Of a DNA stretch of 64,000 nt, positions 74-62,733 are shown piece by piece. Position numbers and translations under genes: made by a program. How positions within the stretch are numbered: position 1 is the first letter of the stretch; each line of letters begins with the position of its first letter. The notes beneath the pieces are model-generated. The model saw only the letters and a list, made by a program, of their open reading frames with translations. It did not search any database and was not told the DNA's origin. The stretch comes from Squalus acanthias (lineage: Eukaryota). The stretch is from assembly GCA_030390025.1 (NCBI GenBank), contig CM059453.1, forward strand, positions 7,812,001-7,876,000. Direction: 5' to 3'.

Positions 74-241
74 AGACAAGACATGTATGGAGACACTGAT
101 GTGAAAGGGGCTACATCAAACCGGTCAGCTCAAAGTGAAGAGGTCCTGTATGCCGCCGTCAGTTTTTCAAAAGTTCACAAGATAGAGCAATATCTCCAGA
201 ACGAGGAGACAAGTGAATACGCCGCAATTAAATTTAAATGA
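74..241 (+). CDS. Terminal cytoplasmic exon of an upstream inhibitory Siglec-like receptor (ITIM + ITSM-like motif)
   Basis: Acceptor ctttctgttatAG (72-73); reads RQDMYGDTDVKGATSNRSAQSEEVLYAAVSFSKVHKIEQYLQNEETSEYAAIKFK*. VLYAAV fits ITIM (V/I/L/S)xYxx(V/L); SEYAAI resembles the distal TEYSEI-type motif of CD33-related Siglecs. Confidence 0.85.
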   Translation, partial: RQDMYGDTDVKGATSNRSAQSEEVLYAAVSFSKVHKIEQYLQNEETSEYAAIKFK

Positions 242-494
242 AATCCACTATTCTGACAGATGGAATATATCAATATCAACACGACTGTTGTTATGACTTA
301 GAATAGGAATTTCACATTCCAGGAATTACGTTGTGAATGGACATCTATCAGAGATTAATTGCTATGATTTCAATTCTCTTTGTGAGAAGATTTGATTTCC
401 AATCCCAAATGAGTTTCTGTTGCAAGCCTCTGTCTGAAATTGAGCAATAAGCAATCTTTAACTCAATGTAATTTTAAACTATTGTATCTGCTTT

Positions 495-500
495 AATAAA
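495..500 (+). terminator. Candidate polyadenylation signal of the upstream ITIM gene
   Basis: AATAAA about 250 nt after the stop at 239-241. Confidence 0.45.
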
Positions 501-502
501 AC

Positions 503-1180
503 AACCTCTCGGCATCTATCCTGTCAATCCCCTTCGGAATATTTTGTTTCAATGAGTTCACCTCTCATTCTTCTAAACTCCAGAGTGTCTAGTCCCATTC
601 TACACAATCTCTCATCATAGGACAGCCCTCTCATCCCAGGAATCAATCTAGTGAACCTTCGTTGCACTGACTCCAAGGCAAGTATATCCTTCCTTAGATA
701 ATGAGACCAAAACTGTACACATTACTCCAGGTGTGGTGTCAGCAAGGCCCTGTACAATCGTAGCAAGACTTCCTTACTCTTACACACCAACCCCTTGCAA
801 TAAAGGCCAACATGCCATTTGCCTCCCTTATTGCTTGCTGTACCTGCATTCTATATTTCTGTGTTTCTTGCACGAGGACACCCAAATCTCACTGAACACC
901 AGTATTTAAAAGGTTTGCAGCATTTAAAAAATATTCTGTTTTTCTATTCTTCCTACCAAAGTGAATAACCTCACATGTCACTGCATTATACTCCATCTGC
1001 CACCTTACTGCCCACTCACTTAGACTATCTATATCCCTTTACCGACACTTTGGTTTTTCCTCACAGCTAAATGCCCCACCTAGCTTTGTATCTTCAGAAA
1101 ACTTGGATACATTACACTCATTCCCTTCATGCAGGTCGTTAATAAAGATTGTAAATAGTTGAGGCCCCAACACTGATCTG
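503..1180 (-). mobile_element. CR1 LINE ORF2 (RT C-terminal) fragment
   Basis: Reverse strand matches CR1 RT segments seen elsewhere in the window (e.g. 56440-57213); degenerate. Confidence 0.85.
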
Positions 1181-1199
1181 GATTGAGCAAACTTTACGA

Positions 1200-3620
1200 G
1201 GCTCCTTTGATTAAATCACTGTGATCAGTAATGGAAGACAGCAGTTGACCCTTAACCTCAGCTGTATGCCAACAATTGCACAATCCTCTTATCTCCTGCA
1301 TGCAGATCTCATCTGAACTGATTCTGTTTCTCAATCTAATGATTAAGGTCGACGTGGCTTATTTGAGATCACGATTGCGTAGGGAATTGTTTCACACTGA
1401 TCAAATTAAAGGGACTTGTTCATGTAGATAAAACATGGCAATATTGTTTCATGCAGCATTGACACTCGAATGTAAAAGCTGAAGCCACACTTCCCAGATC
1501 CAGCACTGAAATGAGAAAACAAACATAAAAGGGTCACTGTGGCAACTGGGATACGAATGAGTTAATTTCACCAAATGTCATATCGCTGAAGTGTGAATAT
1601 AAACAGTTGAGGTCACTTCGAAAAATGGAAGTTTACCGTGTGAAACTGTCCAACTATTTTGAGCCTTTGACATTTCAGCCTGCTGAAGGTGAGAAACCCA
1701 CATGTCTGCAGAGAGCGGCTACAGAACAAACCACAGCATCTCGTTCACAGCACATTGGCAGCAAAGTACCTAAACGTATGAGAGATATGAGGCTAAAGTG
1801 TGCGCACGATGCTATTTTAGATATTCGAATCATAAAAGTTAGTTCCTGTCCTGTAACTGTGTAGCTGATGAGGGGGTAGGAGGGGTAATTCTCTGTTCGG
1901 GAGTCTTTGGCATTATGTTGATATCATCATAGCAAAAGTAATAACGATATCTAAGAAGGGGGATAGAACATTTCAAGGGAATTATAGACCAGTCAGCTTA
2001 ACATCGGTGGGAGAAAAGTTAATGGAATCCCTACTTAAGGAGAAAATGGAAGAACATCTGGAAACCAAAAATATAATAATGAATGGTCAGCATGGATTTC
2101 AACAGGGAAAGTCTTGCTTGACCAACTTTATTGAATTTTTTGAAGAGGTAACTGCGAGAGTAGACAATTGCAATGCAGTAGATGTAATATAAATAGATTT
2201 TCAAAAGGCCTTCGATAAGGTACCCCATAATAGACAGATGAACAAGGTCAGCGAATCTGGAGTCAGGGGACAAGTAGCAGATGGGATTGCTATCTGGATT
2301 CAGAACAAACAGCAGAGAATAGGAGTAAAGGGCAGCTATTCACAGTGGCAGCAGGTGGGTAGTGGTGTGCCACAAGGATCAGTGCTGCGAACACTGCTGA
2401 TCAAAATTTCCATTAACGATTTAGACTTTGGAATCAAAAACATTTTCTAAATTTGCAGATGACACCAAATTGGGGGGGATAGTCAATACTGAGGAGGACT
2501 GCAACACATTACAGGAGGACATTAATAAACTTACAGAATGGCCAAATAATTGGCAAATGAAGTTCAAAACAGATCAACGTGAGGAATTACATTTTGTTAG
2601 GAAGAATAGGGAGGTCACTTATTACTTGGATGGTGTGAGTCTAGGAGGGGCAGAGGAACAAAGGGATCTCGGAGTAAAAATACACAAATCACTAAAAGTT
2701 GCGCCCCAGGTTAGCAAGGCCATAAAAAGCAAATCAATGACAACGCTTTAAGGATTGTTTCCAGAGGGATAGAATTGAAAAGTAGGGAAGTTATGCTAAA
2801 CCTGTAGGTGCAGAGAAGATTTACAAGGATGATACCAGAAATGCAAGGGTATACCTATCAGGAAAGGATGAACAGGCTGGGTCTCTTTCCTCTTCAAAAA
2901 AGAAGTCTGAGGGGTGAACTAATAGAGGACTTTAAAATTATGAAAGGTTTTGATGAAGTGGATACAGAGAGAATGTTTCCACTTGTGGGGAAGAGCAAAT
3001 CTAGAGGCCATCAATGTCATATAGTCACCAAGAAATCCAATAGGGAATTCAGAAGAAACTTCTTTACCTAAAGCGGGTGAGAATGTGGAATTCGCTACTA
3101 CAGGGAGTGGTTGAAGCGAATAGTATGGATGCATTTAAGGGGAGGCTAGACAAGCATATGAGAGAGAAGGGAACAGAGGGTTTTGCTGACAGATTTAGGT
3201 GAGTAAAGTTGGGAGGAGTCTGGAGTGGAACATAAACGCCGGCAGGGTCTGCTTGGGCCGAATGCCCTGTTTCTGTGCTGTATATCCTATGTGATCCTAT
3301 GTAATCATCAGTAAATCTGAACATGTTCACAGACATATTCGAACTGTACGAGAGTGACAACAGTTATGTTCACTAACAGTGAGGGAGATTCACAACCTAT
3401 GTGAGGTAACATGGTTGCCAATGATTGGTGGATTTCCAACAGTTGATATCCCGATGCTCTTATATAATAGATTATCGGCGAGCTGAATCCAGCACCGTGA
3501 TTAGTCTTAGACTGAGAATGTTGTTATACATCGTGAAGTCTCTGCAGTGATGAAGTTTATTTGACTCATCCTGATATTTTCCGAATGTAAAATTAGTTAT
3601 CCTGGAGGCAATTTCCATCG
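1200..3620 (+). pseudogene. 5' relic (upstream region + leader exon) of a Siglec-like gene, interrupted by CR1
   Basis: ~1350-1875 and 3310-3590 resemble 16690-17615 upstream of gene A; leader-exon homologue 3550-3586 reads MKFI*LILIFSE followed by GTAAAA donor (in-frame TGA). Confidence 0.6.
1930..3305 (+). mobile_element. 5'-truncated CR1 LINE (RT + 3' tail)
   Basis: QHGFQQGKSCLTN, SGVPQGSVL, KFADDTKLGG, QRRFTRMIP fragments with frameshifts; tail atcctatgtgatcctatg. Confidence 0.9.
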
Positions 3621-4425
3621 TGTGGGAAAATGCCCAAGTAACTAGTAATAGATCCAGGATTGTACCCATACTAATGGATTTGGCAGGACCTGTTGTTTCA
3701 ATCACTTTCAGCTATGTATTTTCTCGACAAAAACTCCAGGTCCATTTCACACGGAACAGACATCAGCCGAAATTTGCAAAACAAAGCACTGCAACACATA
3801 GGGGGGAATTTGTGTTAAGTTGTGCAAAATTAGAGAGCTTGAGTGTGAAATTGAAAAATTAAATCAATTGGAAAACAAGCTGTTTACCACAGCGTCAAAC
3901 GCTTTACTGTCAAACAGCTCCTATCTAAGACGTCACAGATGCTTGTTGGAGCGCTCATTAACGAAGGTGACGAAACCACACGTCTACAGACTGCAGCAAG
4001 CTAACTAACTGTAGTGACACCTCTCCAACATTCAGCTCGTATTAGCTGCCAGAAAGCGGAATATGTGTGAAATGTGAGTCAGAGGCGTCTGCAAGCGTGG
4101 GCGGTGACATTCTGACGCAGATTCCAATTATTAATATCATAAACAACAGTACATTTGTGTGTTTGTATGTGAGAGAGAGATGATATTTCTGTATTAAGCA
4201 TTCTGTAGCAACTGAAAAACATACCATAACATCATTTTCAGTAACAGTCGGTCACACGCAGCCCATATACATTTATTTAGTATTATACGGTACGAAAGGC
4301 TGATATTTTAAGATATTTAGTTGACGAGAATCATATATGTATATCTTCAAGGGTAGCAATTGACCAAATAATATTACCCATAATTACTCCTGAGTAACAA
4401 AGAAAACTAAGACTTGTTCAAAATA

Positions 4426-9235: not shown

Positions 9236-9478
9236 ATCAGTAACTCTGAAGATGTTCACAGACATATTCGAAATGTCCGAGAGTGACAACAGTTATGTTC
9301 ACTAACAGTGAAGGAGTTTCACAACCTATGTGAGTTAACACGGTTGCCAATGATTGGTGGATTTCCAACAGTTGAAATCCCGATGCTCTTATACAATAGA
9401 TTACTGGCGAGCTGAATCCAGCACCGTGATAAGTCTTAGACTGAGAATGTTGTTATACATCGTGAACTCTCTGCAGTG

Positions 9479-9515
9479 ATGAAGTTTATTTGACTCATCC
9501 TGATATTTTCCGAAT
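9479..9515 (+). pseudogene. Duplicated dead leader exon
   Basis: ATGAAGTTTATTTGA..CCGAAT|GTAAAA, same as 3550-3586. Confidence 0.55.
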
Positions 9516-10355
9516 GTAAAATTAGTACTCCTGGAGGCAATTTCCATCGTGTGGGAAAATGCCCAAGTAACTAGTAATAGATCCAGGATTGTACCCTTAC
9601 TGATCAGTTTGGCAGGACCTGTTGTTTCAATCACTTTCAGCTGTGTATTTTCTCGACAAAAACTCCAGGTCCATTTCACACGTACCAGACATCAGACCGA
9701 AATTTGCAAAACAAAACACTGCAACACATAGAGGGGGATTTGTGTTAAGTTCTGCAGAATTAGAGAGCTTGAGTGTGAAATTCAAAAGTTAAATCAATTG
9801 GAAAACAAGCTGTTTACCACAGCGTCAAACGGTTTACTGTCAAACAGCTCCTATCTAAGACGTCACAGATGCTTGTTGGAGCGCTCATTAACGAAGGTGA
9901 TGAAACCAAACGTCAACAGACTGCAGCAAGCTAACTAACTGTAGTGACACCTCTCCAACATTCAGCTCGTATTAGCTGCCAGAAAGAAGAATATGTGTGA
10001 AATGTGAGTCAGAGGCGTCTGCAAGCGTGCACGGTGCCATTCTGACGCAGACTCCAATTACTAATATCATAAACAACAGTACATTTGTGTGTTTGTATGT
10101 GAGGGAGAGATGTTATTTCTGTATTAAGCATTCTGTAGCAAATGATAAACATTACCTAACATCATTTTCAGTAACAGTCGGTCACACGCAGCCCATATAC
10201 ATTTATTTAGTATTATGCTGTAGGAATGACTGATATTTAAAGATATTTAGTAGACGAGAATCATATATGTATAACTTCAAGGGTAGCAATTGACCAAATA
10301 ATATTACCCATAATTACTCCTGAGTAACAAAGAAAACTAAGACTTGTTCAAAATA

Positions 10356-17569: not shown

Positions 17570-17612
17570 ATGAAGAGTATTAGATTGATCTCCATTCTGA
17601 TATTTAGCAAAG
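17570..17612 (+). CDS. Gene A leader exon
   Basis: MKSIRLISILIFSK + G|GTAAAA, phase 1; paralogous to 32494 and 52370. Confidence 0.75.
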
Positions 17613-17619
17613 GTAAAAT

Positions 17620-21056: not shown

Positions 21057-21344
21057 ATAAACCCATAATAGTATCAGGCCCGACCTGCACCAGTCCCGAC
21101 AGTGGGATTCATTGTAGCTGCAGTGTCAGAGCCAACCCCCCAGCAAACATCACCTGGGGCATCAATGGGAGAAACATCACTGCGAACAGTCCAGATATCA
21201 ATATCCTCTCGTCGGAGTGGAATAGTCACCTGGTGCAAAGCTCCCTGACACTGACTCACCCAACTGAAACTGGACACCTGATCTCATGTTTTGGAGTAAA
21301 CGAGCATGGCGTTACTGTCGGAAAATACCATCTCCAATCTGGAG
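21057..21344 (+). CDS. Gene A membrane-proximal Ig exon (D4)
   Basis: AG|ATAAA..GGAG|GT, 288 nt, phase 1-1; CTS..IHCSCSVRANPPANITW..SSLTL..ISCFGVNEHG as in the last Ig domain of MAG and Siglecs. Confidence 0.9.
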
Positions 21345-22322: not shown

Positions 22323-22422
22323 GATCATTTTGGAGAATTGTCATGCCAACCAGAGCCGCCGTCGCAGTTCTCATTCTGATTGGCATCATTGTCTTGGTGA
22401 CGATAGAGATTGATTCACACAG
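22323..22422 (+). CDS. Gene A transmembrane exon (Arg-containing)
   Basis: ttttAG|GA..AG|GTATG; GSFWRIVMPTRAAVAVLILIGIIVLVTIEIDSHR. Confidence 0.85.
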
Positions 22423-23218: not shown

Positions 23219-23303
23219 GAAGAAGGTAAATATCTCTGTTGGGGTCTCTCCCACAGACAAGGGTGCAGCGATTTACTGTGTGTTGCAGAACCCACTGAAC
23301 TGA
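23219..23303 (+). CDS. Gene A short cytoplasmic exon with stop
   Basis: tctttcAG|G, phase 2 matching the TM exon; RKKVNISVGVSPTDKGAAIYCVLQNPLN* then G|GTAAGT. Confidence 0.7.
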
Positions 23304-23704
23304 GGTAAGTGAGGAGATGGAATGTTGAGACAATTGTCTGGGTTCACATTACAGACACATCCAAGGGTTAAACAGATGTTATAGCAACTGGTTTGACCGT
23401 GTTCTTAAAGGGTGGAATAGCCTCCTCTCCCATGAACAGGGAAATGTTGCAGTGGCAATTGTGTGCATTGATCGGGCAAATGGGATCATGGACATTTTCT
23501 CAGGTCTGGACTTATTTTGAAATGAGTCGGTCTAAAATAACACCTTCCCAATGTCATTATACACATTAACCAGAGTAATGAATACTCTACGACTATATTA
23601 TCTCTTGCGGTTAAAATTCTAAACCCATAGTGTAAGGCCAGAGCAGGGCCAAATCGCATCGTTATTCTCCAGCCTATTTTGTGAATATTCCGCCATGTGT
23701 CTTG

Positions 23705-24745: not shown

Positions 24746-24749
24746 ATAA

Positions 24750-27440
24750 GGACGAATTCCTGAATTGGGCTAATATCAGTGTACACAAATCTTAGGTGGG
24801 ATGCTTGGTGATCTACCTCATGGACACTGTATCCCCTTGGAACTCGTTTTGTTCATCTTCGATGTCGGAGAAGAATTTTGCAGATTCCTGAATTGGCCGA
24901 GTGCTATTTACATATTTTTGCCTCCCGCGAAAGTTTGCATGGTGGTGAGAGGGAATACTGCCGTCATGATGCATTGTTGCGTACTGACTGTTTTGGATAC
25001 GCTCATTGGCCAGTTGACTATTTCCTGTTCGTCTTTTCAGACGTCTGTATTTTCCAAAGCTCAGAATGTGTCCCTCACTGAGTGAGAACAATGAAAAATG
25101 ATCAGAGAAGCGAGAAAGAGGGTTATTCTGGTCGAGGAAGCGCCCTCACACATTGTCTCTTGCTCCCTATCTAACCCCCTCCATTCTGTTACAGAGCCAA
25201 GACCAGTATTGAAATATTGCTATCAGATGATAAACATCCAACAATCAGCGCAAAGTGTAGAGGGTCTGCACGCAATCGGTGAATTTTTGAAGTCTTCACA
25301 AACATAAAATACACCGCGATTAATTTTACATCAAATCCAGTGGGATTTAATCCATTTGGACTAATGGAGCTCATCAATATCTCAACAAAACCGGTTCATG
25401 AGATAGAAAAGAACCTCACATTCCAGGGATTGCTGTGAGAATGGGCATATTTCGCAGATTAATTATTAGTATTTTTCAATTCTGCTTGTTCTTTTTAAAA
25501 TTTACAATCCCGCACATGTTTTCATTCAAACCACATGTCTGAAATGCTGTGGGCTTTAAAGGTCAGCGTAACTTTGAAACAGTTTTTGATGTGCTTTAAT
25601 AGAATAGCAGTCTTCATGAGTAATGTTAACAGTGTTTCCATTGCAGAGCTCCCTCTGTTACATTCGTAGAAAACCCTGGCGGTCAACGATGAACCTCTCT
25701 ATCGTCAGCTGGATTAGTTTGTCAGCCTCTGCCAGACTAGCATAATAAACCTTCACATCGCAGTATCAGTTCCCAGTAGTTTCCTTTACAACACCCGGAC
25801 TTTTTTCAACCTATTTTCAATTCCGGAAGAGACATTCAGAATCAGGGTGCAATGTAAGCAAAATCATTATAAAGAATGGATCTGGGTACTTTGTCAAATA
25901 TTGTTGCACGCATTAGATTCCGCTCGTTATCAAACTGTACAGAACATAAGAACATAAGAAATAGGAGCAGGAGTTGGCCATTCGGCCCCTCAAGCCTGCT
26001 CCGTCATTCAATAAGATCATGGTTGATCTGATCTTTGTCTCAACTCCACTTTCCTGTCCGCTCTCCATAACCATTGATTACCCGATAGTTCAACAATCGG
26101 TCTATTTCCACCTTAAATATATTCAATGACTCCGCCTCCATCGCTCTCTGGGGAAGAGAATTTCAAGATTCACGACCTTCTAATAGAAGAAATTCCTCCT
26201 CATCTCCGTTTTAAATGGGCGACCCCTTCTTCTGAATCTATGCCCCTTGTTCCAGATTACACCTCGAGGGGAAACACCCTCTCTGCATCTACACTGACAA
26301 GCCCCCTCAGAAAATTGATTCTTGCTCAAAAATGGCGAGGCCAGTGTTAGAAGAGGATCACGATGTAACGTGTAATTTGTCATTGTTTAGTGTATCCAAG
26401 GCTTTATTAAAAACTCATAAATCATTTACCTTGTTATCTGTTACTTGAGCTCGGTGGAGCTGAGAGTGGAACACTTTACATTCATTCAAAATAAGCATCC
26501 ACCTTTCCCGGCCAAGCTCAGTGCAGTCAATGGAAGGAATAGGCTCCTGTTAAGGCTTCTGTCCAACAACTGCAAAACATCCCCTTTTACCTGTTTGTGG
26601 TGCTGACAGTGTGAATATGTCTGGGGGATTATATTTAGTTAGTGACATTGCAAATGCACATCGAGAACACATCCCTTCTTCAGTATCTCCCATGAAATCG
26701 CAAACGTTCCCTGGATGTTATGATTGCAATAGAAATAAACCTTACATTGAGGGTCACACTGTCACTGAAACACAGCCTCCGGAGGAATATTCCTGCAATC
26801 TGCTTCATCTGAGTCTCTACTTCAGGTCAAGAGAGGCCAAAGGAAAACTAAGATTATAAAATATGTTATAATAATAGGACTCTGGTTATTTCTACCTCTT
26901 TATCAGTGGTGTAATATCAGCTCACTTTTCACTATTGTCTGTCAGGTCAGTGGTACTTAGCATATATATTAGATTATGTATTTACTCTGTTGTAGATTAG
27001 AACAATAAGTCGGCTAGATTTCGGAGCATGGATATATGAGCGGATACCAAACCAGCATCCACAGCTCCCAGTGCGAGATACAATGAGCAATCGTCATCTC
27101 CCCACCGTTATCAATTAGTCAACAATAATGTGAGATTCAATGGATGAGACACTGGGCTTCAGGGATAATCAATGTCTGCTCCCACTGTATGACACATTAG
27201 GTACATTACGCATCGCCACAGGTAGTCCATTCAGACCACCCACTCTGAGATACAATGTGTGATCCAGATGCCCTCAGGAAAGTTCATTTGATAGTCCCAT
27301 CTGCAATATTCAATGGGAAATCTACATGTGTCCATTGCCAATCCACTAACCACCGCCAATGTGAGATATATTGGGTGAGGTAAAACCTCATCTGAAAATC
27401 AACTTTAACATAGTGTCTGGAAGTACAAAACGTCCTGAAG
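24750..27440 (-). pseudogene. Degenerate antisense Ig-superfamily receptor relic, unit 1
   Basis: Minus-strand fragments VDWQW, GDDDCSLYL..DAGL, VHLQC..ERWM, ETTGN*YCDVK, a hydrophobic stretch ending LVLAL, and a phase-compatible exon KYRRLKRR..SQYATM..KYVNS; many stops and frameshifts. Confidence 0.45.
25940..26310 (-). mobile_element. CR1 3' fragment (copy at 45660-46030)
   Basis: GRPFKTEMRRNFF; agaacataagaa tail. Confidence 0.85.
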
Positions 27441-32493: not shown

Positions 32494-32536
32494 ATGAAGA
32501 GTATTACATTGATCTCCATTCTGATATTTAGCGAAG
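32494..32536 (+). CDS. Gene B leader exon
   Basis: MKSITLISILIFSE + G|GTAAAA; joins the V exon in frame to give ..FSEVVHSSRW. Confidence 0.8.
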
Positions 32537-40724: not shown

Positions 40725-41012
40725 ATAAACCCACAATAGTATCAGGCCCGACCTGCACCAGCTCTGAGGGTGGGGTTCATTGTATCTGCAGTGTCAGAGC
40801 CAACCCCCCAGCAAACATCACCTGGGGCATCAATGGGAGGAACATCACTGCGAACAGTTCAGATATCAATATCCTCTGCTCGGAGTTGAAAAGTCACCTG
40901 GTGCAGAGCTCCCTGACACTGACTCAACCAACTGGAACTGATCTCCTGATCTCATGTTTTGGAGTAAACGAGCATGGCATTACTGTCGGAAAATATCAGC
41001 TCCAATCTGAAG
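40725..41012 (+). CDS. Gene B membrane-proximal Ig exon (D4)
   Basis: 288 nt, phase 1-1; HCICSVRANPPANITW..ISCFGVNEHG. Confidence 0.9.
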
Positions 41013-41890: not shown

Positions 41891-41990
41891 TGTTCTTAAC
41901 AGCTTCCCATACATGCTGTTAAATGTTATGTTGAATCTTGGTATAATCTTAGAGCAATAATGAAGAGCACGGTTTTTTTTTATATTTTAG

Positions 41991-42090
41991 GATCATTTTG
42001 GAGAATTGTCATGCCAATCAGAGCCGCCGTCGCAGTTCTCATTCTGATTGGCATCATTGTCTTGGTGACGATAGAGATTGATTCACACAG
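41991..42090 (+). CDS. Gene B transmembrane exon (Arg-containing)
   Basis: GSFWRIVMPIRAAVAVLILIGIIVLVTIEIDSHR; canonical AG/GT. Confidence 0.85.
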
Positions 42091-42888: not shown

Positions 42889-42973
42889 GAAGAAGACAAA
42901 TATACATGTCGGGGTCTCTCCTGCAGACAAGGATGCAGCGATTTACTGTGTGTTGCAGAACCCAATGAACTGA
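42889..42973 (+). CDS. Gene B short cytoplasmic exon with stop
   Basis: RKKTNIHVGVSPADKDAAIYCVLQNPMN* then G|GTAAGT. Confidence 0.7.
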
Positions 42974-44431
42974 GGTAAGTGAGGAGATGGAATGTTGAGA
43001 CCATTGTCTGGGATCACATTACAGACACATCCAAGGGTTAAACAGATGTTATATGTACTGGTTTGACGGTGTTTTTAAAGGGTGGAATGGCCTCTTCACC
43101 CCATGAACAGGGAAATGTTGCACAGGCAATTGTGTGCATTGATCGGGCAAATGGGATCATGGACATTTTCTCAGGTCTGGACTTATTTTGAAATGAGTCG
43201 GTCTAAAATAACACCTTCCCAATGTCATTAGACACATTAACCAGAGTAATGAATACTCCCCGATTATATTATCTCTTGCAGTTAAAATTCTAAACACATA
43301 ATGTGAGGCCAGAGCAGGGCCAAATCGCATCGCATTTCTACAGCATTTTTGCATCTTCCTCCATGTGTCTTGGTGTCAGTTTGGCTGATTTGGTAGCGCG
43401 CACTCTCTGAAGCTGAAGGTTGTGGTTTGCGACCTCACATCACGATTTGAGCCTTTCAGCTCGCGTGTGACTCCGGTGTTGTACTCCGGGCGTGCCGCAT
43501 TGTTGGAGCTTCGGCATTTCTGATATACCGAGGCTCTTCGCCAGCTCGATGTTCTCAATGTCATGCGCTGTGAGAGGGACAGGACAGACTCCTCCACACA
43601 TCTTAATCCCAGACCCAGGCTGCCTGTTCTAGTAGTTCAGGTGTATGTTAGAAATCTCATGCACTACTGCAAGAAGAATAGGGATTGCGCCACACGTGGT
43701 GGTTAGAACTCCTCCAAAGCCAGCAAATTGTGACTGCTTGGCCATTGATCTCATTTGCTGTTTGCAGTCGCTTGTTGGAAGCAGGTTTACTGTAGCACGC
43801 CCATTGTAATGCATTGGGTAGAAGGTGTTGCTGTCCTGCTAATTCGCCAGATGAATACCTAAAACTTTTTTAGTTATCTGATGGTTTTTCTTTACCCAGG
43901 GGCTCATCGACACTTGTAATAATTTATCGGCTCTTGTGATGAGTGCGAATTCGCTGCAACAATTCAAAAAGAAACTGGACCAACATAAGAACATAAGAAA
44001 CAGGGGCAGGAATAGGCCAATTGGCTCCTCGAGCCTGCACCGCCATTCAATAAGATCATGGCTGATCTTGGGCTCAAAGCCACTTCCCCACCCGTTCCCC
44101 ATAACCCTTCAATCCCTTATCTTGCAAAAATCTGTCTATTTCCACCTTAAATGTATTTGATGACCCAGCCTCCACAGCTCTCTGGAGCAGAGAATTCCAC
44201 AGATTTACGACCCTCTGAGAGAAGAAATTCCTCCTCATCTCAGTTCTAAAAGGGCGACCCTTTATTCTGAAACTATGTCCCCGAGTTCTAGATTTCCCCA
44301 CGAGGGGAAACATCCTCTCTGCATCTACCTTGACGATCCCCGCCAGTATCTTATATGTTTCAATAAGATCACCTCTCATTCTTCTAAATTCCAATGAGTA
44401 TAGGCCCAACCTGCTCAACCTTTCATCATAA

Positions 44432-47155
44432 GTCATTAGGACGAATTCCTTCCTTGGGCTAATATCAGTGTATACAAATCTTAGGTGGGATGTTGGGTGA
44501 TCTACCTCATGGACACTGTTGTCCCCTTGGAACTCGTGTTGTTCATCTTCGGGGTCGCAGAAGAATTTTGCAGATTCCTGAATTGGCCGAGTGCTATTTA
44601 CATATTTTTGGCTCCCGCGAGAGGTTGCATGGTGGTGAGAGGGAATATTGCCGTCATGATGCATTGTTGCGTCTTGACTCTTTTGGATAGGCTCATTGGC
44701 CAGTCGATTATTTCCTGTTCGTCTTTTCAGACGTCTATATTTTCCAAAGCTCAGAATGCGTCCATCACTGAGTGAGAACAATTAAAAATAATCAGAGAAG
44801 CGAGAAAGAGGGCTATTCTTGTACAGGAAGTGCCCTCACACCTTGTCTCTTGCTCCCTATCTAACCCCCTCCATTCTGTTACAGAGACAAGACCAGTACA
44901 GAAATATTACTATCAGATGGTCTACATCCAACAATCATCGCAAAGTCTAGAGGATCTGCACGCAATCGATGAATGTTTGAAGTCTTCACAAACATGAAAG
45001 ATATCCCCAGAAGGAGGAGTCCAGTGAATACACCGCGATTAAGTTTAAATCAAATCCAGTGGGATTTAATCCATTTGGACAGTTGGAGCTCATCAATATC
45101 TCAACACAACTGGTTCATCAGATAGAAAAGAACCTCACATTCCAGGGATTGCTGAGAAAATGCGCATATTTCGCAGATTAATTGTTAGCATTTTTCATTT
45201 CTGCTTGTTGCTTTTTAAATTTACAATCCCGCACATGTTTTCATTCAAACCACATGTCTGAAATGCTGTGGGCTTTAAAGGTCCGAGTAACTTTGAAACA
45301 GTTTTTGACGTGCTTTAATAGAATATCTGTCTTCATCAGTAATGTTAACAGTGTTTCCATTGCAGAGCTCCCTCTACTACATTCATAGACAACCCTGGAG
45401 GTCAACGATGAACCACTCTATCGTCAGATGGATTAGTTTGTCAGCCTCTGCCAGCCCAGTATAATAAACCTTCACATCGCAGTATCAGTTTCCAGCAGTT
45501 TCCTTTACAACACCCGGACTTTTATCAACCTATTTTCAATTCCAGAATAGACATTCAGAATCAGGGTGCAATGTAAGCAAAAACATTACAAAGAATGGAT
45601 CTGGGTATTTTGTCAAGTATTGCTGCACGCATTAGATTCCGCCCGTTATCAAACTGTACAGAACATAAAAACATAAGAAATAAGAGCAGGGGTAGACCAT
45701 TCGTCCCCTCGAGACTGCTCCGCCATTCAATAAGATCATGGCTGATCTGAACTTCGATCTCAACTCCACTTCCCTGCCCGCTCCCCATAACCCTTGACTC
45801 CCCTATTGTTCAAAAATCTGTCTGTCTCCACCTTAAATATATTCAATGACTCCGCCTCCACAGCTCTCTGGGGCAGATAATTCCAAAGCTTCACGACTGA
45901 GAGAAGAAATTCCTCCTCATCTCCGTTTTAAATGGGCGACATTTTATTCTGAATCTATGACCACTAGATCTAGATTCCCCCTCTAGGGGAAACACCCTCT
46001 CTGCTTCTACCCTGACAAGCCCCCTCAGAAAATTGATTCTTGCTCAAAAATGGTGAGACCAGTGTTAGAAGAGGATCACGATGTAACGCATAATTTGTCA
46101 TTCTTTAGTGTATACAATGCTTTATTAAAAAGTCATAAATCGTTTACCTTGCTATCTGTTACTTGAGCTCAGTGGAGCTGAGAGTGGAACACTTGACATA
46201 CATTCAAAATAAGCATCCACCTTTCCCCGGTCAGGCACAGTGCAGCCAATTGAAGGAATAGGCTCCTGTTAAGGCTTCTGTACAGCAACTGCAAAACATC
46301 CCCTTTTACCTGTTTGTGGTGCTGACAGTGAGAATATTTCTGGGGGATTATATTTAGGTAGTGACATTGCAAATGCACATCGGGAACACTTCCCTTCTTC
46401 AGTATCTCCACTGAAATCGCAAACGTTCCCTGGGTGTTATGATTGCAATAGAAATAAGCATTACCATGAGGGTCACACTGTGACTAAAACACAGCCTCCG
46501 GAGGAATATTCCGACAATCTCCTTCATATGAGTCTCTAATTCAGGTCAAGAGAGGCCGACCGAACAACTAAGATTATAAAATATGTTATAATAATAGGAC
46601 TCTGGTTATTTCTACCTCTTTATCAGTGGTGCAATAAGTGCTCACTTTTCACATTTGTCTGTCAGGTCAGTGGTATTTATCATATATATTAGATTATGTA
46701 TTTACTCTGTTGTAAATTAGCACAATAATTCCGCTAGATTTCGGAGCCTGGATACATGAGCAGGTCCCAAACCAACATCCACAGCTCCCAGTGCGAGATA
46801 CAATGAACAATCTTCATCTCCCCACCGTTATCAATTAGCCAACCATGATGTGAGATTCAATGAATGAGACACTGGGCTTCAGGGATAATCAATAACTGTT
46901 CCAATGTACGACACAATAGGTACATTACACATCGCCACAGGTAGTCGATTCAGACCACCCACACCGAGATACAATGCGTGGTTCAGGTGCCCTCAGGAAA
47001 GTTCATTTGATAGCCCCGTCTGCAATATTCAATGGGAAATCTACATATGTCCATTGCCAATCTACTAACCACCGCCAATGTGAGATATATTGGGTGAGGT
47101 ACAACCTCTTATGAAAATTAACTTTAACATAGTGCCTTGAAGTACAAAACGTCCT
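44432..47155 (-). pseudogene. Degenerate antisense Ig-superfamily receptor relic, unit 2
   Basis: DVGLxTC, VHLQC..GERWM (ORF 46169-46411), ETAGN*YC; cytoplasmic-like frame open ~110 codons (KYRRLKRR..KYVNS..FVYTDI) up to the CR1 junction. Confidence 0.45.
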
Positions 47156-52369: not shown

Positions 52370-52412
52370 ATGAAGAGTATTACATTGATCTCCATTCTGA
52401 TATTTAGCGAAG
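52370..52412 (+). CDS. Gene C leader exon
   Basis: MKSITLISILIFSE + G|GTAAAA. Confidence 0.8.
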
Positions 52413-52806: not shown

Positions 52807-53187
52807 TTGTCCATAGTTCACGATGGTCTGTGAAGGTGCCGTGGAAGGTGTCGGCGGTGAGCGGATCATGTGCTGAGATCCCGTGTACATTTGATTATCC
52901 CGCCTCTGGCCGCAATCCAGGGTGTATGTGGTTAAAGGGGGGTCCTAAACCTGGTACCTCAGGGGTCTCGATTGTCTATGATTCCAGTGATGCAAACAAT
53001 AAAGACTATAACGATAGAGGACGAATTGAATTCACCGGCGATTTTCTGAAGAAACAATGTTCCTTACAGATTAATGTCACCAGGAAGAGCGATGCAGGTG
53101 ACTATTACTTCAGAGTGAAGATCACCACCGCCTGGAATATAACAGATCAATACGTTTCCAAATCTCCTGTCTCTCTTTCTATTTTAG
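52807..53187 (+). CDS. Gene C Siglec V-set exon
   Basis: 381 nt; DAGDYYFRV retained; 3 amino-acid differences from gene B. Confidence 0.92.
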
Positions 53188-54053
53188 GTAAGTGTTTTTA
53201 TTTGCTCCTGTTGTATTTTATATTCCATCTCCTCAGTGCCATTGAACTTACGACTAACATACCAATATTCCGAGTAATTGTTGGCCCATGTCACAGGATA
53301 CAGCGGCAGGACTGCTCCGCTGACTCTCACCCAGGTGTGTGTTATGTTTTGACTTGAACTGTAATAGGGCGCAGGCCTTCTTAATAACTTACAGAAGCTC
53401 CCTGGCAAGGCAAGAAGAATACTTTATCATACGAATATATTAAACTGCAGGTGGAGGAAATATACAGGTAGATGTGAAATTCTATGCAAAGGAAGCAGGT
53501 GGACCATTTGTGTAAATAGACTGCTTGATGTGGTGCCGAAGCGTTACGCCAACAGTGTCCCAGATTCTATCCCATGTCTGTGCTTGGGATAGAATCTAGG
53601 ACACGCTTAGTCTAATGACTCAGTGTCAGATCAAACAATTAATTTACCCAAAGCGGCATGGACGGGTTGAATTGTTGCTGATATTTGAAAGTTTCATTTT
53701 GCATTTTGAGCAATGCAGTGAGTGCGTGGTCAATAAATCACCTGACAATAATGTGAATTATTCACGTGATAAAGCGACTGACTATTAATTATACGAGTAC
53801 ATAAATGCTCCGATTGATTCTTTAACTCTAAGAACTTTTAGCATATTTCGATGCACCATAGCGCGGGAAAAAAACAGTAGAATGAATTCTTAAGGGGATA
53901 TTTTCTCAGTCTTTGGGCTGAATCACCTTGCACACCATTGGCCATTTTAAAATTGAAATCTACTGTAACGCGAATGTCCTTCTCTCCTTATTATAAACCA
54001 CGGATATCAGTCTCTGGGGAATTGATTGCTAGAAAACCAGTACACCTGACCTG

Positions 54054-54510: not shown

Positions 54511-54849
54511 TTAAATGTAATTATCAGTGCGGATGAGGAATATAAAATAATAGATGTGACAACTAAAGAAGAATATTGAAGTAAGATATAGTGGCTATCT
54601 TGCAATCTATTAATTCAAAATCCATTTCCTGATTTTTATGCCCTCGATCTTACGCTTATGTCAAACATACGCATTCCTTCTCCTCTTCTCTTCAACGATT
54701 TGAAGATGGATATGTTTTCCCGCATAATGTTCTATTCCACCGGTACATCAACCTCGTGGCAATTCCTACCAGATTAAGTACGGTGGACTTTCCCATGTCT
54801 TACACAGGGGTGCTGAGGCTAATTATAGAATCCAGACTAACGCCCCAGC

Positions 54850-55520
54850 TAAATTGTGCCACAGGTTAGCAAGGCCATGAAAAAAAACAAGCACTAGAGT
54901 TTATTTCGAGAGGGATAGAATTGAAAGGTATGGAGGTTATGCTAAACCTGTATCGAACATTGGTTAGGCCACACTTGGAGTACTGCATACAGTTCTGGTC
55001 ACCATATTATAAAAAGGATATCGAGGCACTGGCGAGGGTGCAGAGATTTACAAGGATGATACCAGAAATGCGAGGGTATACATATCAGGTAAGGATGAAC
55101 AGGCTGGGTCTCTTTTCTCTTGAAAAAAGAATGCTGAAGGGTGACCTAATAGTGGGCTTTAAAATTGTGGCAGGCTTTGATAGAGTCGATGCAGAGAGAA
55201 TGTTCCCACTTGTGGGGAAGAGCATAAATGGTGGTTATCAATATAAGATAGTCACCAAGAATTCCAATTGGGAATTCAGAAGAAATTTTTTACCCAGAGT
55301 GAGGTGAGAATGTGGAACTCGCTACCACAGGGAGTGGTTGAAGCGAATAGTAAAGATGCATTTAAGGGGTGGCTGGACAAGCATATGAGGGAGAAGGGAA
55401 TAGAGGGTTACGCTGATAGAATTTGATTAGGAAAGATAGGAGGAGGCTCGAGTGGAACATAAACGCCGGCATGGACTGGTTGGGCCCAATGATTTGTTTC
55501 TGTGCCGTATGTCCTATATA
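54850..55520 (+). mobile_element. CR1 3' fragment (inverted counterpart of 34720-35765, no HE1)
   Basis: ORF 54921-55307 LYRTLVRPHLEYCIQFWSP. Confidence 0.9.
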
Positions 55521-55811
55521 TGTACGTGAGTTAGCTCAGACCATGAATGGACTCTCCCTGGCCTGTATGTTCCAGTTACTCTGTGGCTGAAACGACATCA
55601 AACATTGGGAGCCTTTGCAATAAAATTTCAGGTAAACCCTGGAGCGACCAATATTACTCATGGGTCTGGGGTAAATGTCAAATAATGTGACTTACATGAA
55701 GCTTCGATTACTTGTTTATCCAGGCGCGCTATCACTATATTCAATATAAAGACATCTATTGAACCGGTTTATCAACAAGTTGGTTGAATGAAGCTTAGAG
55801 TAGGCACTTAC

Positions 55812-56123
55812 ATTTAATATCCGGTGTAAGAGTTGCTTGAACGGTAGCTGTGACACCGTCGGCTATAGGTTTACATCCCAGTTTCTTCCCATGATGGTCC
55901 GGTGATGGGCTGAAGTTAAAAGTGGATGAAACCTTCTGGGAACCCTCGACCTTGTCGCCATTTCCTTTTGAAGTTTTACTCTCTGGCAGAAAAGGAGGGA
56001 CAACTTAGTCATGAGTCCACATCAGTTCAAGGTTGGTGGACGGGCAACTGTGGGTGACTGAGCAGGTCAGGTGTACTGGTTTTCTAGCAATCAATTCCCC
56101 AGAGACTGATATCCGTGGTTTAT
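55812..56123 (-). pseudogene. Gene C domain-2 exon, inverted and inactivated
   Basis: 312-nt reverse complement of 34117-34428 with the same TAA and the same lost acceptor. Confidence 0.85.
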
Positions 56124-56439
56124 AATAAGGAGAGAAGGACATTCGCGTTACAGTAGATTTCAATTTTAAAATGGCCAATGGTGTGCAAGGTGATTCAGCC
56201 CAAAGTCTGAGAAAATATCCCCTTAAGAATACATTCTACTGTTTTTTTCTCGCGCTATGGTGCATCGAAATATGCTAAAAGTTCTTAGAGTTAAAGAATC
56301 AATCGGAGCATTTATGTACTCGTATAATTAATAGTCAGTCGCTTTATCACGTGAATAATTCACATTATTGTCAGGTGATTTATTGACCACGCACTCACTG
56401 CATTGCTCAAAATGCAAAATGAAACTTTCAAATATCAAT

Positions 56440-57213: not shown

Positions 57214-57246
57214 GTCATTCAGAACCAATGACCTCATCTCTTGCAG

Positions 57247-57504
57247 ATGCCCCACAAAAACCGTTCATCAATTTCTCTATAGCGGCAGTGGAAGGGAGTT
57301 TGTTATGGTTATACTGCACGACCCGGGAGATCATACCGGGCAACTTAACGTTGGTCCGAAATGGTGAAGAGATCAGCACGTCTTCCACAGGTGAACTGAA
57401 GCACATATTCCATAACATTAGTTCTGAAGATAACGGTGAATATTGGTGCGTGGCTGACAATAACTTGGGCAAAGCGAACAGCTCCACACAGATTTCTGTA
57501 CAAT
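57247..57504 (+). CDS. Gene C Ig exon D3
   Basis: 258 nt, phase 1-1; EGSLLWLYC..EDNGEYWCVADNNLG. Confidence 0.88.
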
Positions 57505-58681: not shown

Positions 58682-58969
58682 ATAAACCCAAAATAGTATC
58701 AGGCCCGACCTGCACCAGCTCTGAGAGTGGGATTCATTGTAACTGCAGTGTCGGAGCCAAGCCCCCAGCAAACATCACCTGGGGCATCAATGGAATAAAC
58801 ATCACCGCGAACAGTTCAGATATCCAAATCTTCTCCTTGGAGTTGAATAGTCACCTGGTGCAGAGCTCCCTGACACTGACTCACCCAAATGGAACTGGAC
58901 ACCGGATCTCATGTTTTGGAGTAAACGAGCATGGCGTTACTGTCGGCAAATACCAGCTCCAATCTGGAG
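58682..58969 (+). CDS. Gene C membrane-proximal Ig exon (D4)
   Basis: 288 nt; HCNCSVGAKPPANITW..ISCFGVNEHG. Confidence 0.9.
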
Positions 58970-59930: not shown

Positions 59931-60319
59931 AACTTGCTAGTTTTGAATATTTAGTCCAATGTGTCCACCTCGCTCAATAAAACACATTTTGGAGCTAGTT
60001 CAGATTGCCCCTGGATGGTTGTCATGGAGATATTATGAGAAGATAACATGAGATAATCCTGAAAATTGAACCAGCATATTTGGGATAATTGAAAGTGCAG
60101 ATGCTAGATTGATTTGAAGTATTGGATAGCAGGCGAACAGATCCGAGTGTGTAGCGAGGATATAGGCAGGCTGTCGGTGTTATACCTGGAAACATATATT
60201 TAGTCAGATCATTAATCACAAGCTTTCAAGGTGGCTGGTCCCATGCAATTCAAACACTGTATCGTATGAAGAGGAATCGCTAGTTCTTTAAGGCCCAATT
60301 TTGCAAAACTTCTCAGTTA

Positions 60320-60680
60320 GAATCATAGAAATTTACGGCACAGAAGGAGACCATTCGGCCAATCGTATCTGTGGCGGACGAAAAAGAGCTATCCAGCCCG
60401 ATCCCACTTTCCAGTTCTTGGTCCGTAGCTTTGCAGGTTACGGTGCTTCAAGTGCATATCCAAGAATTTTTTTAATGCTATTAGGGTTTTTGCCTCTATC
60501 ACTCTTTCAGGCAGTGAGTTTCATTTCCCCAGAACCTTCTGGGTGAAATAGGTTCCATTAAATCCCCTCTAATCCTTCTACCAATTACTTTAAATCTATG
60601 CCCCCGGGTTATTGACCCCTCACCTAAGGGAAATAGGTCCTTCCTATCCATTCTTTCAAGGATCCACATAATTTTATACA
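60320..60680 (-). mobile_element. CR1 3' fragment
   Basis: DLFPLGEGSITRGHRFK. Confidence 0.8.
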
Positions 60681-60784
60681 CGAAAAATTTGCATTAACTG
60701 AATCAACATGTGTTACCAATTCTGAGATGTGGACCAGGTATTGTTTATTTACATTTTCTTATTTTGATTTCTTTTGAACTTAAC

Positions 60785-62270
60785 ATAGGGGAGGTACCAG
60801 AGGACTGGAGAACAGCTAACGTTGTACCATTATTCAAGAAGGGTAGTAGGAATAAACCAGGGAATTTACAGGCCAGTGAGCCTACCATCAGTGGTAGGGA
60901 AATTATTGGAAAAAATTCTGAGGGACAGAATTAGTCTACACTTAGAGAGGCAAGGATTAATGAAAGATAGTCAGCATGGCCCTTTCAGGGGCAGATCATG
61001 TCTAACCAATTTGATTGAATTTTTCGAGGGGGTGACTCGGTGTGTGGATGAGGGTAGTGCAGTTGATGTAGTCTATATGGACTTCAGTAAGGGTTTTGAC
61101 AAAGTCCCACATGGGAGACTGCTCAAGAAGCTAAGAGCCCATGGGGATCCAGGGCAATTTGGCACATTTCATCTAAAATTTGCTTAGTGGCAGGAGGCAG
61201 AAGGTGATGGACGAAGGTTGTTTTTGTGACTGGAAGCCTGTGTCCAGTGGTGTACCGCAGGGATCGGTGTTGGGTCCCTTGCTGTTTGTAGTGTACATTA
61301 ATGAATTAGATATGAATTCATGAGGTATGATCAGTAAGTTCGCAGATGACACGAACATTGCTGGTGTGGTTAATAGCGAGGAGGGAAGCCTCAGGCTACA
61401 GGACGATATAGACGAGTTGGTCAGATGGGTAGAACATTGGCAAATTGAATTTAAACCTGAAAAGTGCGAGGTGATGTATTTTGGGAGGACTAACAATGCA
61501 AAAGAATAAACAATGAATGGTAGCACCCTAGGAAGGACAGAGGATCAGAGGGACCTTGGTGTGCTTGTACATAGATCCCTGAAAGCAGCAGGACAGTTAG
61601 ATAAGGTGGTTAAGAAGGCATATGGGATAATTGCCTTCATTAGCTGAGCCATAGAATATAAGAGGAGGGAGGCATGATGGAGCTGTAAAAAACGTTAGTT
61701 GGGCCACAGCTGGAATATTGTGTGCAGTTCTGGTCGCCTCACTATAGGAAGGATATGATTGCATTAGAGAGGGTGCAGAGGAGATTCACCAGGATGTTAC
61801 CTGGGCTGGAGCGTTTCAGCTATGGAGAGACTGGACAGGCTGGGGTTGTTTTTCTTAGAGGAGTGAAGGCTGAAGGCGGACCTGATTCAGGTGTCCAAAA
61901 TTATGAGGGGCATAAATAGCGTAGATAGAAAGTAACTTTCCCCCTTAGTAGAGGGTTCACTAACCAGGGGACATAGTTTCAAGGTCAGGGGCAGGAGGAT
62001 TAGAGGGGATTTGAGGGAAAACTTTTCCACTCAGAGGGTGGTTGGAATCTGGAACTCACTGCCTGAAAGGGTGGTAGAGGCAGGAACCCTCACAACATTC
62101 AAGAAGCATTTAGACGAGCACTTGAAACGCCATTGCATACAAGGCTACGGACCAAGTGCTGGAAAATGGGATTAGAATAGACAGGGCTTGATGGCCGGCG
62201 CGGACCCGATGGGGCAAAGGGCCTCTTTCTGTGCTGCATAACTCTATGACTCTATGAGTATGACTCTATA
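60785..62270 (+). mobile_element. 5'-truncated CR1 LINE (RT)
   Basis: PEDWRTANVVPLFKKG, YMDFSKGFDKVPH, KFADDT; (actctatg)n tail. Confidence 0.92.
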
Positions 62271-62648
62271 TAGGACAGCAATCATAAGACAATTAGTTCA
62301 AATTTACACAGGGGACAAAACCATTGCTGAAATTCAGTGTCAGTCTGTGGAAGGAGAAATCATTTCAAATGATGCCCTCTCTGTGTTCAGTGAACATTGC
62401 CCATTAAATGAATAAAATACAATAAGGATTTGTAGGGAGATTAGATTTGGGGTCATTTCCAAGTCGTCCATCTTCAGATTGCCGGGTCAGAGTCCTGTCT
62501 GTTTAGGAATAGATAGAAATACTGAACTCTTACTTTTAAGTAGAGAATTTCTAGAAAACTTGCCTGCACAAGCTGACAAAAGTTATCCTAAAACCATGAT
62601 GTAATCTTAGAGCAATAATAAACAGCAAAGTCTTTTTGAATATTTTAG

Positions 62649-62733
62649 GAACATTTCCCTGGGAAATTGTCATCCCAATATTAGCAGCCGCCGGAGTTAT
62701 CCTGCTGATCCTGATCGTGGTGATGGTGCACAG
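62649..62733 (+). CDS. Gene C transmembrane exon (no charged residue in the hydrophobic span)
   Basis: ttttAG|GA..AG|GTATG; GTFPWEIVIPILAAAGVILLILIVVMVHR; flanks homologous to TM exons of A and B. Confidence 0.85.

What the first reader, a model, noticed from the sequence alone, without database searches (positions are those of the whole stretch)
74..62733. Candidate paired activating/inhibitory Siglec-like receptor cluster in a cartilaginous fish
Seen: one tandem array holds an ITIM/ITSM-like tail exon (74-241), two genes (A, B) with a TM Arg and a ~28-aa tail lacking a canonical ITIM, and gene C with an almost identical V-set but an uncharged TM. Established: this layout defines paired receptors such as SIGLEC5/14 and SIGLEC11/16, thought to counter sialic-acid-mimicking pathogens. 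Inference: an elasmobranch lineage has its own paired Siglec-like system. Gene C's tail lies outside the window, so its inhibitory status is unproven.
Basis: partly seen in the sequence, partly recalled or inferred. Interest (0 to 1): 0.8.

Follow-up and report, generated by a model that had tools for sequence, protein, structure and literature searches.

The report
Shark paired Siglec-like receptor cluster
This stretch of a shark genome holds a row of sugar-sensing immune receptor genes in likely 'brake' and likely 'accelerator' versions whose sensing ends have been copied onto each other, as in human paired Siglecs, but several copies are damaged and none is shown to work.

Summary
The tandem array is real and belongs to a shark/ray family of Siglec-like genes related to MAG. 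The exon at 74-241 is an intact two-ITIM tail. Genes A and B have an Arg-bearing TM, a 28-residue tail and a decayed copy of the ITIM exon. Gene C has the uncharged TM type that carries ITIMs in 10 of 10 related TM segments. B and C differ by 2.4% with no indels over 3.66 kb (promoter to second domain) but by 12-30% further 3', the mark of 5' gene conversion. The Arg-TM exon recurs in Mustelus and Cetorhinus, while the Ig domains group by species, so the pairing is old and under concerted evolution.

A has lost its V-set and two C2 exons, so it cannot bind sialic acid. In B and C the second Ig exon is dead (acceptor lost, shared stop; inverted in C), so both make receptors only by skipping it. 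dN/dS does not show selection. Expression, ligand, adaptor and C's tail are untested. Verdict: an apparently undescribed, independently arisen paired Siglec-like system, seen at a partly decaying locus.

The parts
74..241 (+). Gene X last coding exon: intact tail with two ITIM-consensus motifs (VLYAAV, SEYAAI); the rest of the gene lies upstream of the window
1183..3630 (+). Relic 5' end of another family gene: promoter homology split by a repeat, leader exon at 3550 with a stop at codon 5, no Ig exon found behind it
9251..9559 (+). Second copy of the dead leader (starts 9479), part of a tandem duplicate
17570..17612 (+). Gene A leader exon; a deletion of about 4.7 kb (relative to B) starts 10 nt into the intron at an ATATT microhomology and removes V, D2 and D3
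21057..21344 (+). Gene A membrane-proximal C2 exon (D4), open frame
22323..22422 (+). Gene A TM exon with Arg
23219..23304 (+). Gene A short-tail exon, stop 1 nt before the donor
25195..25333 (+). Gene A decayed ITIM exon (frameshifts, 29-nt deletion, early stop)
30522..34402 (+). 5' tract of B nearly identical to C (50398-54053 plus the inverted D2 copy): promoter, leader, V, D2; inferred gene-conversion tract
32494..32536 (+). Gene B leader exon
32931..33311 (+). Gene B Siglec-type V-set exon: F-strand Arg, A-strand Trp, B-E strand Cys pair, inter-domain Cys, one extra Cys
34117..34428 (+). Gene B dead D2 exon: acceptor AG absent, TAA at 34233-34235, donor kept (start approximate)
36103..36384 (+). 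Gene B D3 exon (best Siglec match: MAG domain 4 region)
40725..41012 (+). Gene B D4 exon (best match MAG domain 5)
41991..42090 (+). Gene B TM exon with Arg
42889..42974 (+). Gene B short-tail exon with non-canonical AIYCVL; about 2 nt shorter than relatives' exon, stop 1 nt before the donor
44885..45052 (+). Gene B decayed ITIM exon (first Tyr lost, two stops, distal SEYTAI kept behind them)
52370..52412 (+). Gene C leader exon
52807..53187 (+). Gene C V-set exon, 98% identical to B's protein
53993..54053 (+). Gene C plus-strand stub of D2, no acceptor, no donor (start approximate)
54512..56437 (-). Inverted block in gene C holding the whole dead D2 exon (about 56123-55812, same TAA); 375-bp inverted duplication at the breakpoint, 3 differences
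57223..57504 (+). Gene C D3 exon
58682..58969 (+). Gene C D4 exon
62649..62733 (+). Gene C uncharged TM exon of the GTFPW type; tail exons lie beyond the window

Best explanation
This is part of a birth-and-death cluster of an elasmobranch Siglec-like family related to MAG. The family has two old membrane/tail cassettes: an uncharged TM with an ITIM tail (X, very probably C), and an Arg TM with a truncated tail (A, B). SHOWN in the sequence: the Arg type descends from an ITIM-bearing gene, because it still carries the wrecked ITIM exon. Its tail ends at a stop just before the donor of the first cytoplasmic exon, and B and C share a near-identical 5' tract. INFERRED: that stop came from a 2-nt deletion and escapes nonsense-mediated decay because it lies 1 nt from the last junction. 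Repeated duplication and gene conversion keep the ligand-binding ends of the two types alike. B and C are spliced V-D3-D4-TM by skipping the dead D2 exon (phase 1 to phase 1; B gives 392 aa). C would then dampen signalling through SHP-1/2, and B would pair through its Arg with an ITAM adaptor (FcR-gamma or DAP12 type) and activate on the same sialylated ligand. A is a V-less remnant.
For: Siglec V-set by sequence and fold. B/C divergence steps from 1-3.7% in the 5' tract to 8-10%, then 12-19% around D3/D4 and about 30% at the TM. No indels in 3656 bp against 12.1 expected from the A/B duplicate, P 6e-6 (tract chosen after seeing the data). The tract covers the first two domains, as reported for SIGLEC5/14 and 11/16 (PMC4042635, passages). 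TM-exon tree joins A, B, Mustelus P0005 and Cetorhinus P0017 (90/99), while V, D3 and D4 trees reject an Arg-type clade (p-AU below 1e-30) and pair B with C and P0004 with P0005. 10 of 10 G[TSI][FL]PW-type TM segments in named relatives are followed by a canonical ITIM. All retained exons of B (6 of 6) and C (5 of 5) have AG/GT ends and one open frame. D2-less V-D3-D4 models exist in Scyliorhinus (P0010) and Heterodontus (P0018). The A/B TM exon differs at 1 of 100 nt against 4.8-6.4 expected (P 0.01-0.04).
Against: No dN/dS value is significantly below 1 (V 0.29, D3 0.48, D4 1.32 for B-C; 0.90 for A-B). Open frames could survive by chance: simulated P about 0.15-0.25 per gene at 1.8% divergence per lineage, 0.02-0.03 at 3.5%. 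B has a cryptic in-frame acceptor at 34135 that would lead to a stop after 174 aa. Skipping D2 leaves the inter-domain Cys unpaired, whereas the D2-less relatives have replaced it with Asp. Two ITIM-bearing relatives (P0012, P0021) also have a basic residue near the outer TM edge. The TM tree rests on 31 columns, the bootstrap had not settled, and AU tests did not reject the by-species alternatives (p 0.275 and 0.081). Only 8 of 24 named relatives with a V-set F strand keep the essential Arg (read). Relatives are predicted gene models, some visibly fused.
Confidence: 0.5

Rival explanations
1. The paired architecture is ancestral, but here B, C or both are young pseudogenes. The D2 lesion arose in one copy, spread by conversion, and the array is decaying.
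For: Two dead leaders, a V-less gene A, a dead D2 in both B and C and an inversion inside C, all within 64 kb. dN/dS is not distinguishable from 1. D2 differs by only 13 of 309 nt between B and C, so the lesion may be recent. Conversion from a non-functional allele is known for SIGLEC16P to SIGLEC11 (PMC5701461, passages).
Against: 11 of 11 remaining exons in B and C are open with intact splice ends; the joint neutral survival is roughly 0.03-0.05 at the lowest divergence tried, though conversion makes the two genes non-independent. D2-less relatives exist.
Confidence: 0.3
2. The A/B type is not activating. The Arg snorkels at the membrane interface and the receptor is a decoy or an uptake receptor, or signals weakly through its remaining YxxL.
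For: The tail keeps a Tyr motif homologous to the proximal ITIM of relatives (AIYCVL against VTYAAV/VIYAVV). Basic residues near the outer TM edge also occur in ITIM-bearing P0012 and P0021. No paper on ITAM adaptors in sharks came up.
Against: The Arg is invariant in 4 of 4 members of this TM lineage across three species although the rest of the exon diverges, and the matching position is uncharged in the GTFPW type. Loss of ITIMs plus a TM basic residue is the standard activating signature (PMC13358205, passages).
Confidence: 0.15
3. The B/C near-identity and the inversion in C are assembly artefacts (haplotypes or repeats mis-joined).
For: Long similar repeats and an almost perfect 375-bp inverted duplicate. 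No reads were available.
Against: The window has no N. B and C differ at about 88 sites spread along the tract in a smooth gradient. The inverted copies differ at 3 of 375 sites, and the D2 lesion is present in both genes. The same ectodomain-by-species pattern holds in Mustelus.
Confidence: 0.05

Closest known systems
Primate SIGLEC5/SIGLEC14 and SIGLEC11/SIGLEC16 (CD33-related paired Siglecs)
   Same: Adjacent inhibitory-type and activating-type genes; near-identical V-set; conversion confined to the segment encoding the first two domains (PMC4042635, passages); broken alleles taking part in conversion (PMC5701461, passages).
   Different: Shark family with MAG-like C2 domains; no orthology test to CD33-related Siglecs was possible; both partners have lost D2; the activating type keeps a 28-residue tail with a YxxL; nothing functional is shown.
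Myelin-associated glycoprotein (Siglec-4)
   Same: Best solved-structure match of a whole family member (E 3e-40); D4 matches MAG domain 5 and D3 the domain 4 region.
   Different: Reptile MAG sequences form a separate long branch in V, D3 and D4 trees; the family is multicopy, fast-evolving, with 2-4 or more Ig domains and two TM types. It is not the MAG orthologue.
RefSeq-type predicted shark and ray 'MAG-like / Siglec-5/8/12/13/14-like' proteins (Heptranchias, Mustelus, Scyliorhinus, Heterodontus, Chiloscyllium, Cetorhinus, Carcharodon, Stegostoma, Pristiophorus, Mobula, Hypanus)
   Same: Same family: 48-63% V-set identity for the closest five, same domain order, same tail motifs.
   Different: Automatic names only; the one named 'lectin 14' (P0004) carries ITIMs. 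Many lack the essential Arg. No description as a paired family was found.
PILR-alpha/beta
   Same: Paired sialic-acid receptors with a Siglec-like V-set; among the top fold matches (TM-score 0.77-0.79).
   Different: Single-domain ectodomain and a different Cys pattern (recalled, not tested); no sequence hit.
MDIR family of skate and zebrafish
   Same: A multigene activating/inhibitory Ig receptor family already known in cartilaginous fish (PMC3031540, passages).
   Different: CD300/TREM/pIgR-like, not Siglec-like; so paired receptors in elasmobranchs as such are not new.

Membership tests
Siglec | N-terminal V-set of Siglec type with F-strand Arg and A-strand Trp | tested here: met
   B and C align to sialoadhesin Trp2 and Arg97; model pLDDT 88, top fold hits sialoadhesin, Siglec-15, PILR, Siglec-7, MAG. 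Not met for gene A, which has no V exon.
Siglec | Intra-sheet B-E Cys pair in the V-set | tested here: met
   Both Cys align with those of sialoadhesin; bond geometry not inspected.
Siglec | Second (C2) domain disulfide-linked to the V-set | tested here: not met
   The V-set Cys is present but the D2 exon is dead in B and C; intact D2 is present in most relatives.
Siglec | Arg-dependent sialic-acid binding | not testable with these tools
   Needs a glycan array with the Arg-to-Ala control.
Paired receptor (SIGLEC5/14 type) | Linked genes with near-identical ligand-binding domains | tested here: met
   B and C are 20 kb apart, V-set 98% identical, 3.66-kb tract at 2.4%.
Paired receptor (SIGLEC5/14 type) | One partner with a TM basic residue and no ITIM | tested here: met
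   B: TM Arg; no canonical ITIM by the natural route in any frame. A distal SEYTAI is reachable only by skipping the tail exon and using a weak internal acceptor.
Paired receptor (SIGLEC5/14 type) | Other partner with an ITIM tail | tested here: inconclusive
   C's tail is outside the window; its TM type is followed by ITIMs in 10 of 10 related segments. X has ITIMs but its ectodomain is outside the window.
Paired receptor (SIGLEC5/14 type) | Both expressed, in the same cells, with opposite signalling | not testable with these tools
   No RNA or functional data; dN/dS uninformative.
CD33-related Siglecs | Monophyly with mammalian CD33-related Siglecs and synteny | not tested
   No named CD33-related, CD22, Siglec-1 or Siglec-15 sequence came back as a usable protein; no flanking genes in the window. 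Best-hit scores favour MAG for the ectodomain and sialoadhesin for the V-set alone.
MAG (Siglec-4) orthologue | Five Ig domains and grouping with MAG in trees | tested here: not met
   At most four Ig exons per gene; reptile MAG sits on a separate branch with 99-100 support.

The most novel reading that the evidence does not exclude
Sharks built their own paired Siglec system from a MAG-like ancestor, independently of the mammalian CD33-related pairs. An Arg-TM 'activating cassette' has been kept across shark orders while the ligand-binding exons are continually overwritten by the neighbouring ITIM gene. In this species conversion has even carried loss of the second Ig domain into both partners, giving a working three-domain pair.
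Probability: 0.4. Interest if true: 0.7.

Novelty: new variant of a known kind. Interest (0 to 1): 0.52.

Why it matters
A study of teleost Siglecs states that only Siglec-1, CD22, MAG and Siglec-15 are regularly present in fish and that fish genomes lack inhibitory CD33-related Siglecs (PMC7226832, passages). A multicopy, ITIM-bearing, gene-converting Siglec-like family with an Arg-TM counterpart across sharks would show that the paired-Siglec design either dates to early jawed vertebrates or arose twice. The shared Arg-TM exon and the still-visible wrecked ITIM exon make the route from inhibitory to activating receptor directly readable. If B and C turn out to be pseudogenes, the family-level point survives through Mustelus and Cetorhinus, but this locus is then only a decaying example.

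Tried and rejected
Search for C's tail exons inside the window: none by blastn, tblastn or nhmmer. Search for V, D2 or D3 exons of gene A, or Ig exons behind the two dead leaders: none. A leader-like ORF on the minus strand near 16400 has no splice donor and no meaningful Pfam hit; rejected as a gene. dN/dS as proof of function: not significant in any of 11 comparisons. First structure model on a 7-row alignment failed (pLDDT 39.5) and was not used; the 28-row model was. The idea that the extra C-strand Cys pairs with the orphaned Cys could not be checked, because coordinates are not returned. AU tests on the TM tree did not reject by-species grouping. Exon ends were off by one for D4 and TM and were corrected; TM, ITIM and motif read-outs for relatives are unaffected. 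The cryptic-acceptor test was off by one and was redone. A cluster look-up to name further hits could not be made, so the unnamed hits stayed out of all trees and counts. No tree with CD22, Siglec-1, Siglec-15 or CD33-related Siglecs was built. One review (PMC3015071) was not held. No complex prediction was run, as no shark adaptor sequence was at hand.
Full report
What was checked. The window has no N and is built from large direct duplications. Translating the candidate exons and running tblastn with five named shark relatives gave an exon map, with splice ends fixed. All family exons are on the plus strand except an inverted D2 copy in gene C. The order is: last exon of gene X (74-241), two dead leader relics (3550, 9479), gene A (17570-25333), gene B (32494-45052), and gene C (52370 to beyond the window). 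The organism is a cartilaginous fish by homology: all 5 hits and all 25 are shark or ray proteins. Heptranchias is nearest in the D3 and D4 trees with weak support (82 and 80). The species was not determined.

The observation. X's exon encodes 55 aa with VLYAAV and SEYAAI. A and B have an Arg seven residues after the interface Trp of the TM, and a tail of Arg plus 27 residues from one exon whose stop lies 1 nt before the donor. Relatives have two more codons at this place, so a 2-nt deletion is the simplest origin of the stop; this is inferred from proteins, as no relative's DNA was seen. Downstream, A and B carry copies of X's exon at 68% identity. In B the first Tyr is lost, and a 1-nt deletion and a 1-nt insertion enclose two stops; A also has a 29-nt deletion. 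From the natural acceptor no frame reaches an ITIM in A or B. B's distal SEYTAI could be reached only by skipping the tail exon and using a purine-rich internal AG. C's V-set is 98% identical to B's and its TM is uncharged. Its tail exons are not in the last 1.27 kb.

Gene A has no V, D2 or D3 exon: 10 nt into intron 1 it joins sequence matching B 37291 at an ATATT microhomology. Its remaining exons still join into a 171-aa frame, but there is no lectin domain, and the residues that complete the signal peptide in B are gone. In B the D2 exon has no acceptor AG and a TAA at 34233. In C the same lesions sit in an inverted block (54512-56437), with a 60-nt stub left on the plus strand and a 375-bp inverted duplication differing at 3 sites. 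V ends in phase 1 and D3 starts in phase 1, so skipping D2 gives 392 aa for B and an open frame to the TM for C. B also has a weak cryptic acceptor at 34135 that would end the protein at 174 aa.

What family it is. The V-set matches Pfam V-set and the CD22-like first Ig domain. Its first 18 solved-structure hits are Siglecs, led by sialoadhesin, with Trp2, the B and E strand Cys and Arg97 aligned. A model on 28 rows (pLDDT 88) matches sialoadhesin, Siglec-15, PILR-alpha, Siglec-7 and MAG best. D4 matches MAG domain 5, and a whole relative matches MAG best (E 3e-40). Three reptile MAG-type sequences form a separate long branch in all three domain trees, so this is a MAG-related multigene family, not MAG. 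Of 27 named shark and ray proteins retrieved, 24 show a V-set F strand and 8 of those keep the Arg (read). Whether the family is closer to CD33-related Siglecs, CD22, Siglec-1 or Siglec-15 was not tested by tree.

Concerted evolution. B and C differ at 2.41% of 3656 aligned bases from the promoter into D2, with no indel. Windows inside fall to 1.0%. Divergence then rises to 8% just after D2, 12-19% around D3 and D4 and about 30% at the TM. The A/B duplicate differs by 6.4-8.6% with 3.3 indels per kb, which predicts 12.1 indels in the tract (P of none 6e-6; the tract was chosen after seeing the data). B's 3' half matches A and its 5' half matches C, which fits an unequal crossover followed by conversion; the direction cannot be read. 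[quoted passage not shown]

The two cassettes are old. In an alignment of 27 TM segments (3 from the window, 24 from named relatives), A, B, Mustelus P0005 and Cetorhinus P0017 share a one-residue gap, the Arg and a C-terminal extension, and group at 90/99. That tree has only 31 columns, its bootstrap had not settled, and AU tests did not reject by-species grouping (p 0.275, 0.081). In contrast, the Ig-domain trees pair B with C and P0004 (ITIM tail) with P0005 (Arg TM), and reject an Arg-type clade in V, D3 and D4 (the likelihood gaps are very large, and constrained searches may overstate them). C's TM type is followed by a canonical ITIM in 10 of 10 related segments. Against a simple reading, ITIM-bearing P0012 and P0021 also have a basic residue near the outer TM edge, and all relatives are predicted models.

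Are B and C alive? For: 11 of 11 retained exons are open with AG/GT ends. D2-less V-D3-D4 models exist in two other sharks (P0010, P0018). The A/B TM exon differs at 1 of 100 nt (P 0.01-0.04). Against: no dN/dS differs significantly from 1 in 11 comparisons. Simulated neutral survival is 0.15-0.25 per gene at the lowest plausible age of the D2 lesion and 0.02-0.03 at the age of the A/B duplication. The D2-less relatives have replaced the inter-domain Cys by Asp, which B and C have not. The neighbourhood is full of decay. I put a working, oppositely signalling B/C pair at about even odds.

Mechanism, shown and inferred. Shown: exon structure, lesions, identity gradient and motif content. Inferred from homology: C is inhibitory. 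Inferred from established paired-receptor biology (PMC13358205 and PMC3210942, passages): ITIMs recruit SHP-1/2, and a TM basic residue without ITIMs recruits an ITAM adaptor. Recalled, from no call: an Arg near the outer end of the TM is typical of FcR-gamma-coupled receptors and is also used by Siglec-14 with DAP12, and a stop within about 50 nt of the last junction escapes nonsense-mediated decay. Sialic-acid binding and a pathogen-mimicry driver are analogies only.

Prior description. Nine literature searches (search listings, and only the top rows where many papers matched) showed no paper describing a Siglec-like paired family in sharks. Passages were read from PMC3210942, PMC13358205, PMC5701461, PMC7226832, PMC8455134, PMC3031540 and PMC4042635; no whole text and no supplement was read. 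The whale shark paper mentions Siglecs once and points to a supplementary file that I did not open. PMC7226832 says fish lack CD33-related Siglecs, with no mention of sharks. PMC3031540 shows that activating/inhibitory Ig families (MDIR) are already known in skate. Most subscription papers, including Siglec-evolution surveys that I recall exist, are outside the library, so absence from print is not established. The proteins themselves are in public annotation under automatic names.

Verdict. The finding is real and the paired reading is largely right at the family level, with better evidence than first given. At the gene level it needs correction: A is a V-less remnant, and B and C are D2-dead and may or may not be expressed. 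It works like SIGLEC5/14, but is not shown to be a CD33-related Siglec. New variant of a known kind; interest 0.52.

Noticed in passing
window 2807-8422 and 8736-13760: Tandem duplicate (5-7% diverged) holding a decayed, purine-rich LTR-retroelement-like remnant with a primer-binding-site-like motif at 5200 and 11128; its ORF pieces gave no meaningful Pfam hit. The label rests on recalled features.
   Followed up: partly
window 1183-1932, 3323-3630, 9251-9559: Relic promoter and two leader exons with a stop at codon 5, from further family genes whose Ig exons are gone.
   Followed up: yes
window 14139-14358, 30531-30639, 50352-50515: A 50-bp minisatellite lies upstream of each of the three promoters; it could be a recombination or conversion start point.
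   Followed up: no
window 14917-16423: About 1.5 kb present upstream of gene A but not of B or C, with a leader-like ORF on the minus strand that lacks a splice donor.
   Followed up: partly
window 32933-33310 and 52809-53186: B and C have an extra Cys two residues before the C-strand Trp that the five closest relatives lack; it coincides with loss of D2, but pairing with the orphaned Cys was not testable.
   Followed up: partly
P0003 (Heptranchias), P0020 (Stegostoma): These predicted proteins have only the second half of D2, hinting that D2 is broken in other sharks' copies too.
   Followed up: no
P0015 (Scyliorhinus torazame), first TM: A second, apparently separate Arg-bearing TM type with no ITIM behind it in a fused gene model; the activating form may have arisen more than once in the family.
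   Followed up: partly
named relatives P0006-P0024, P0163: 16 of 24 V-sets lack the essential Arg, so much of the family may bind something other than sialic acid.
   Followed up: no
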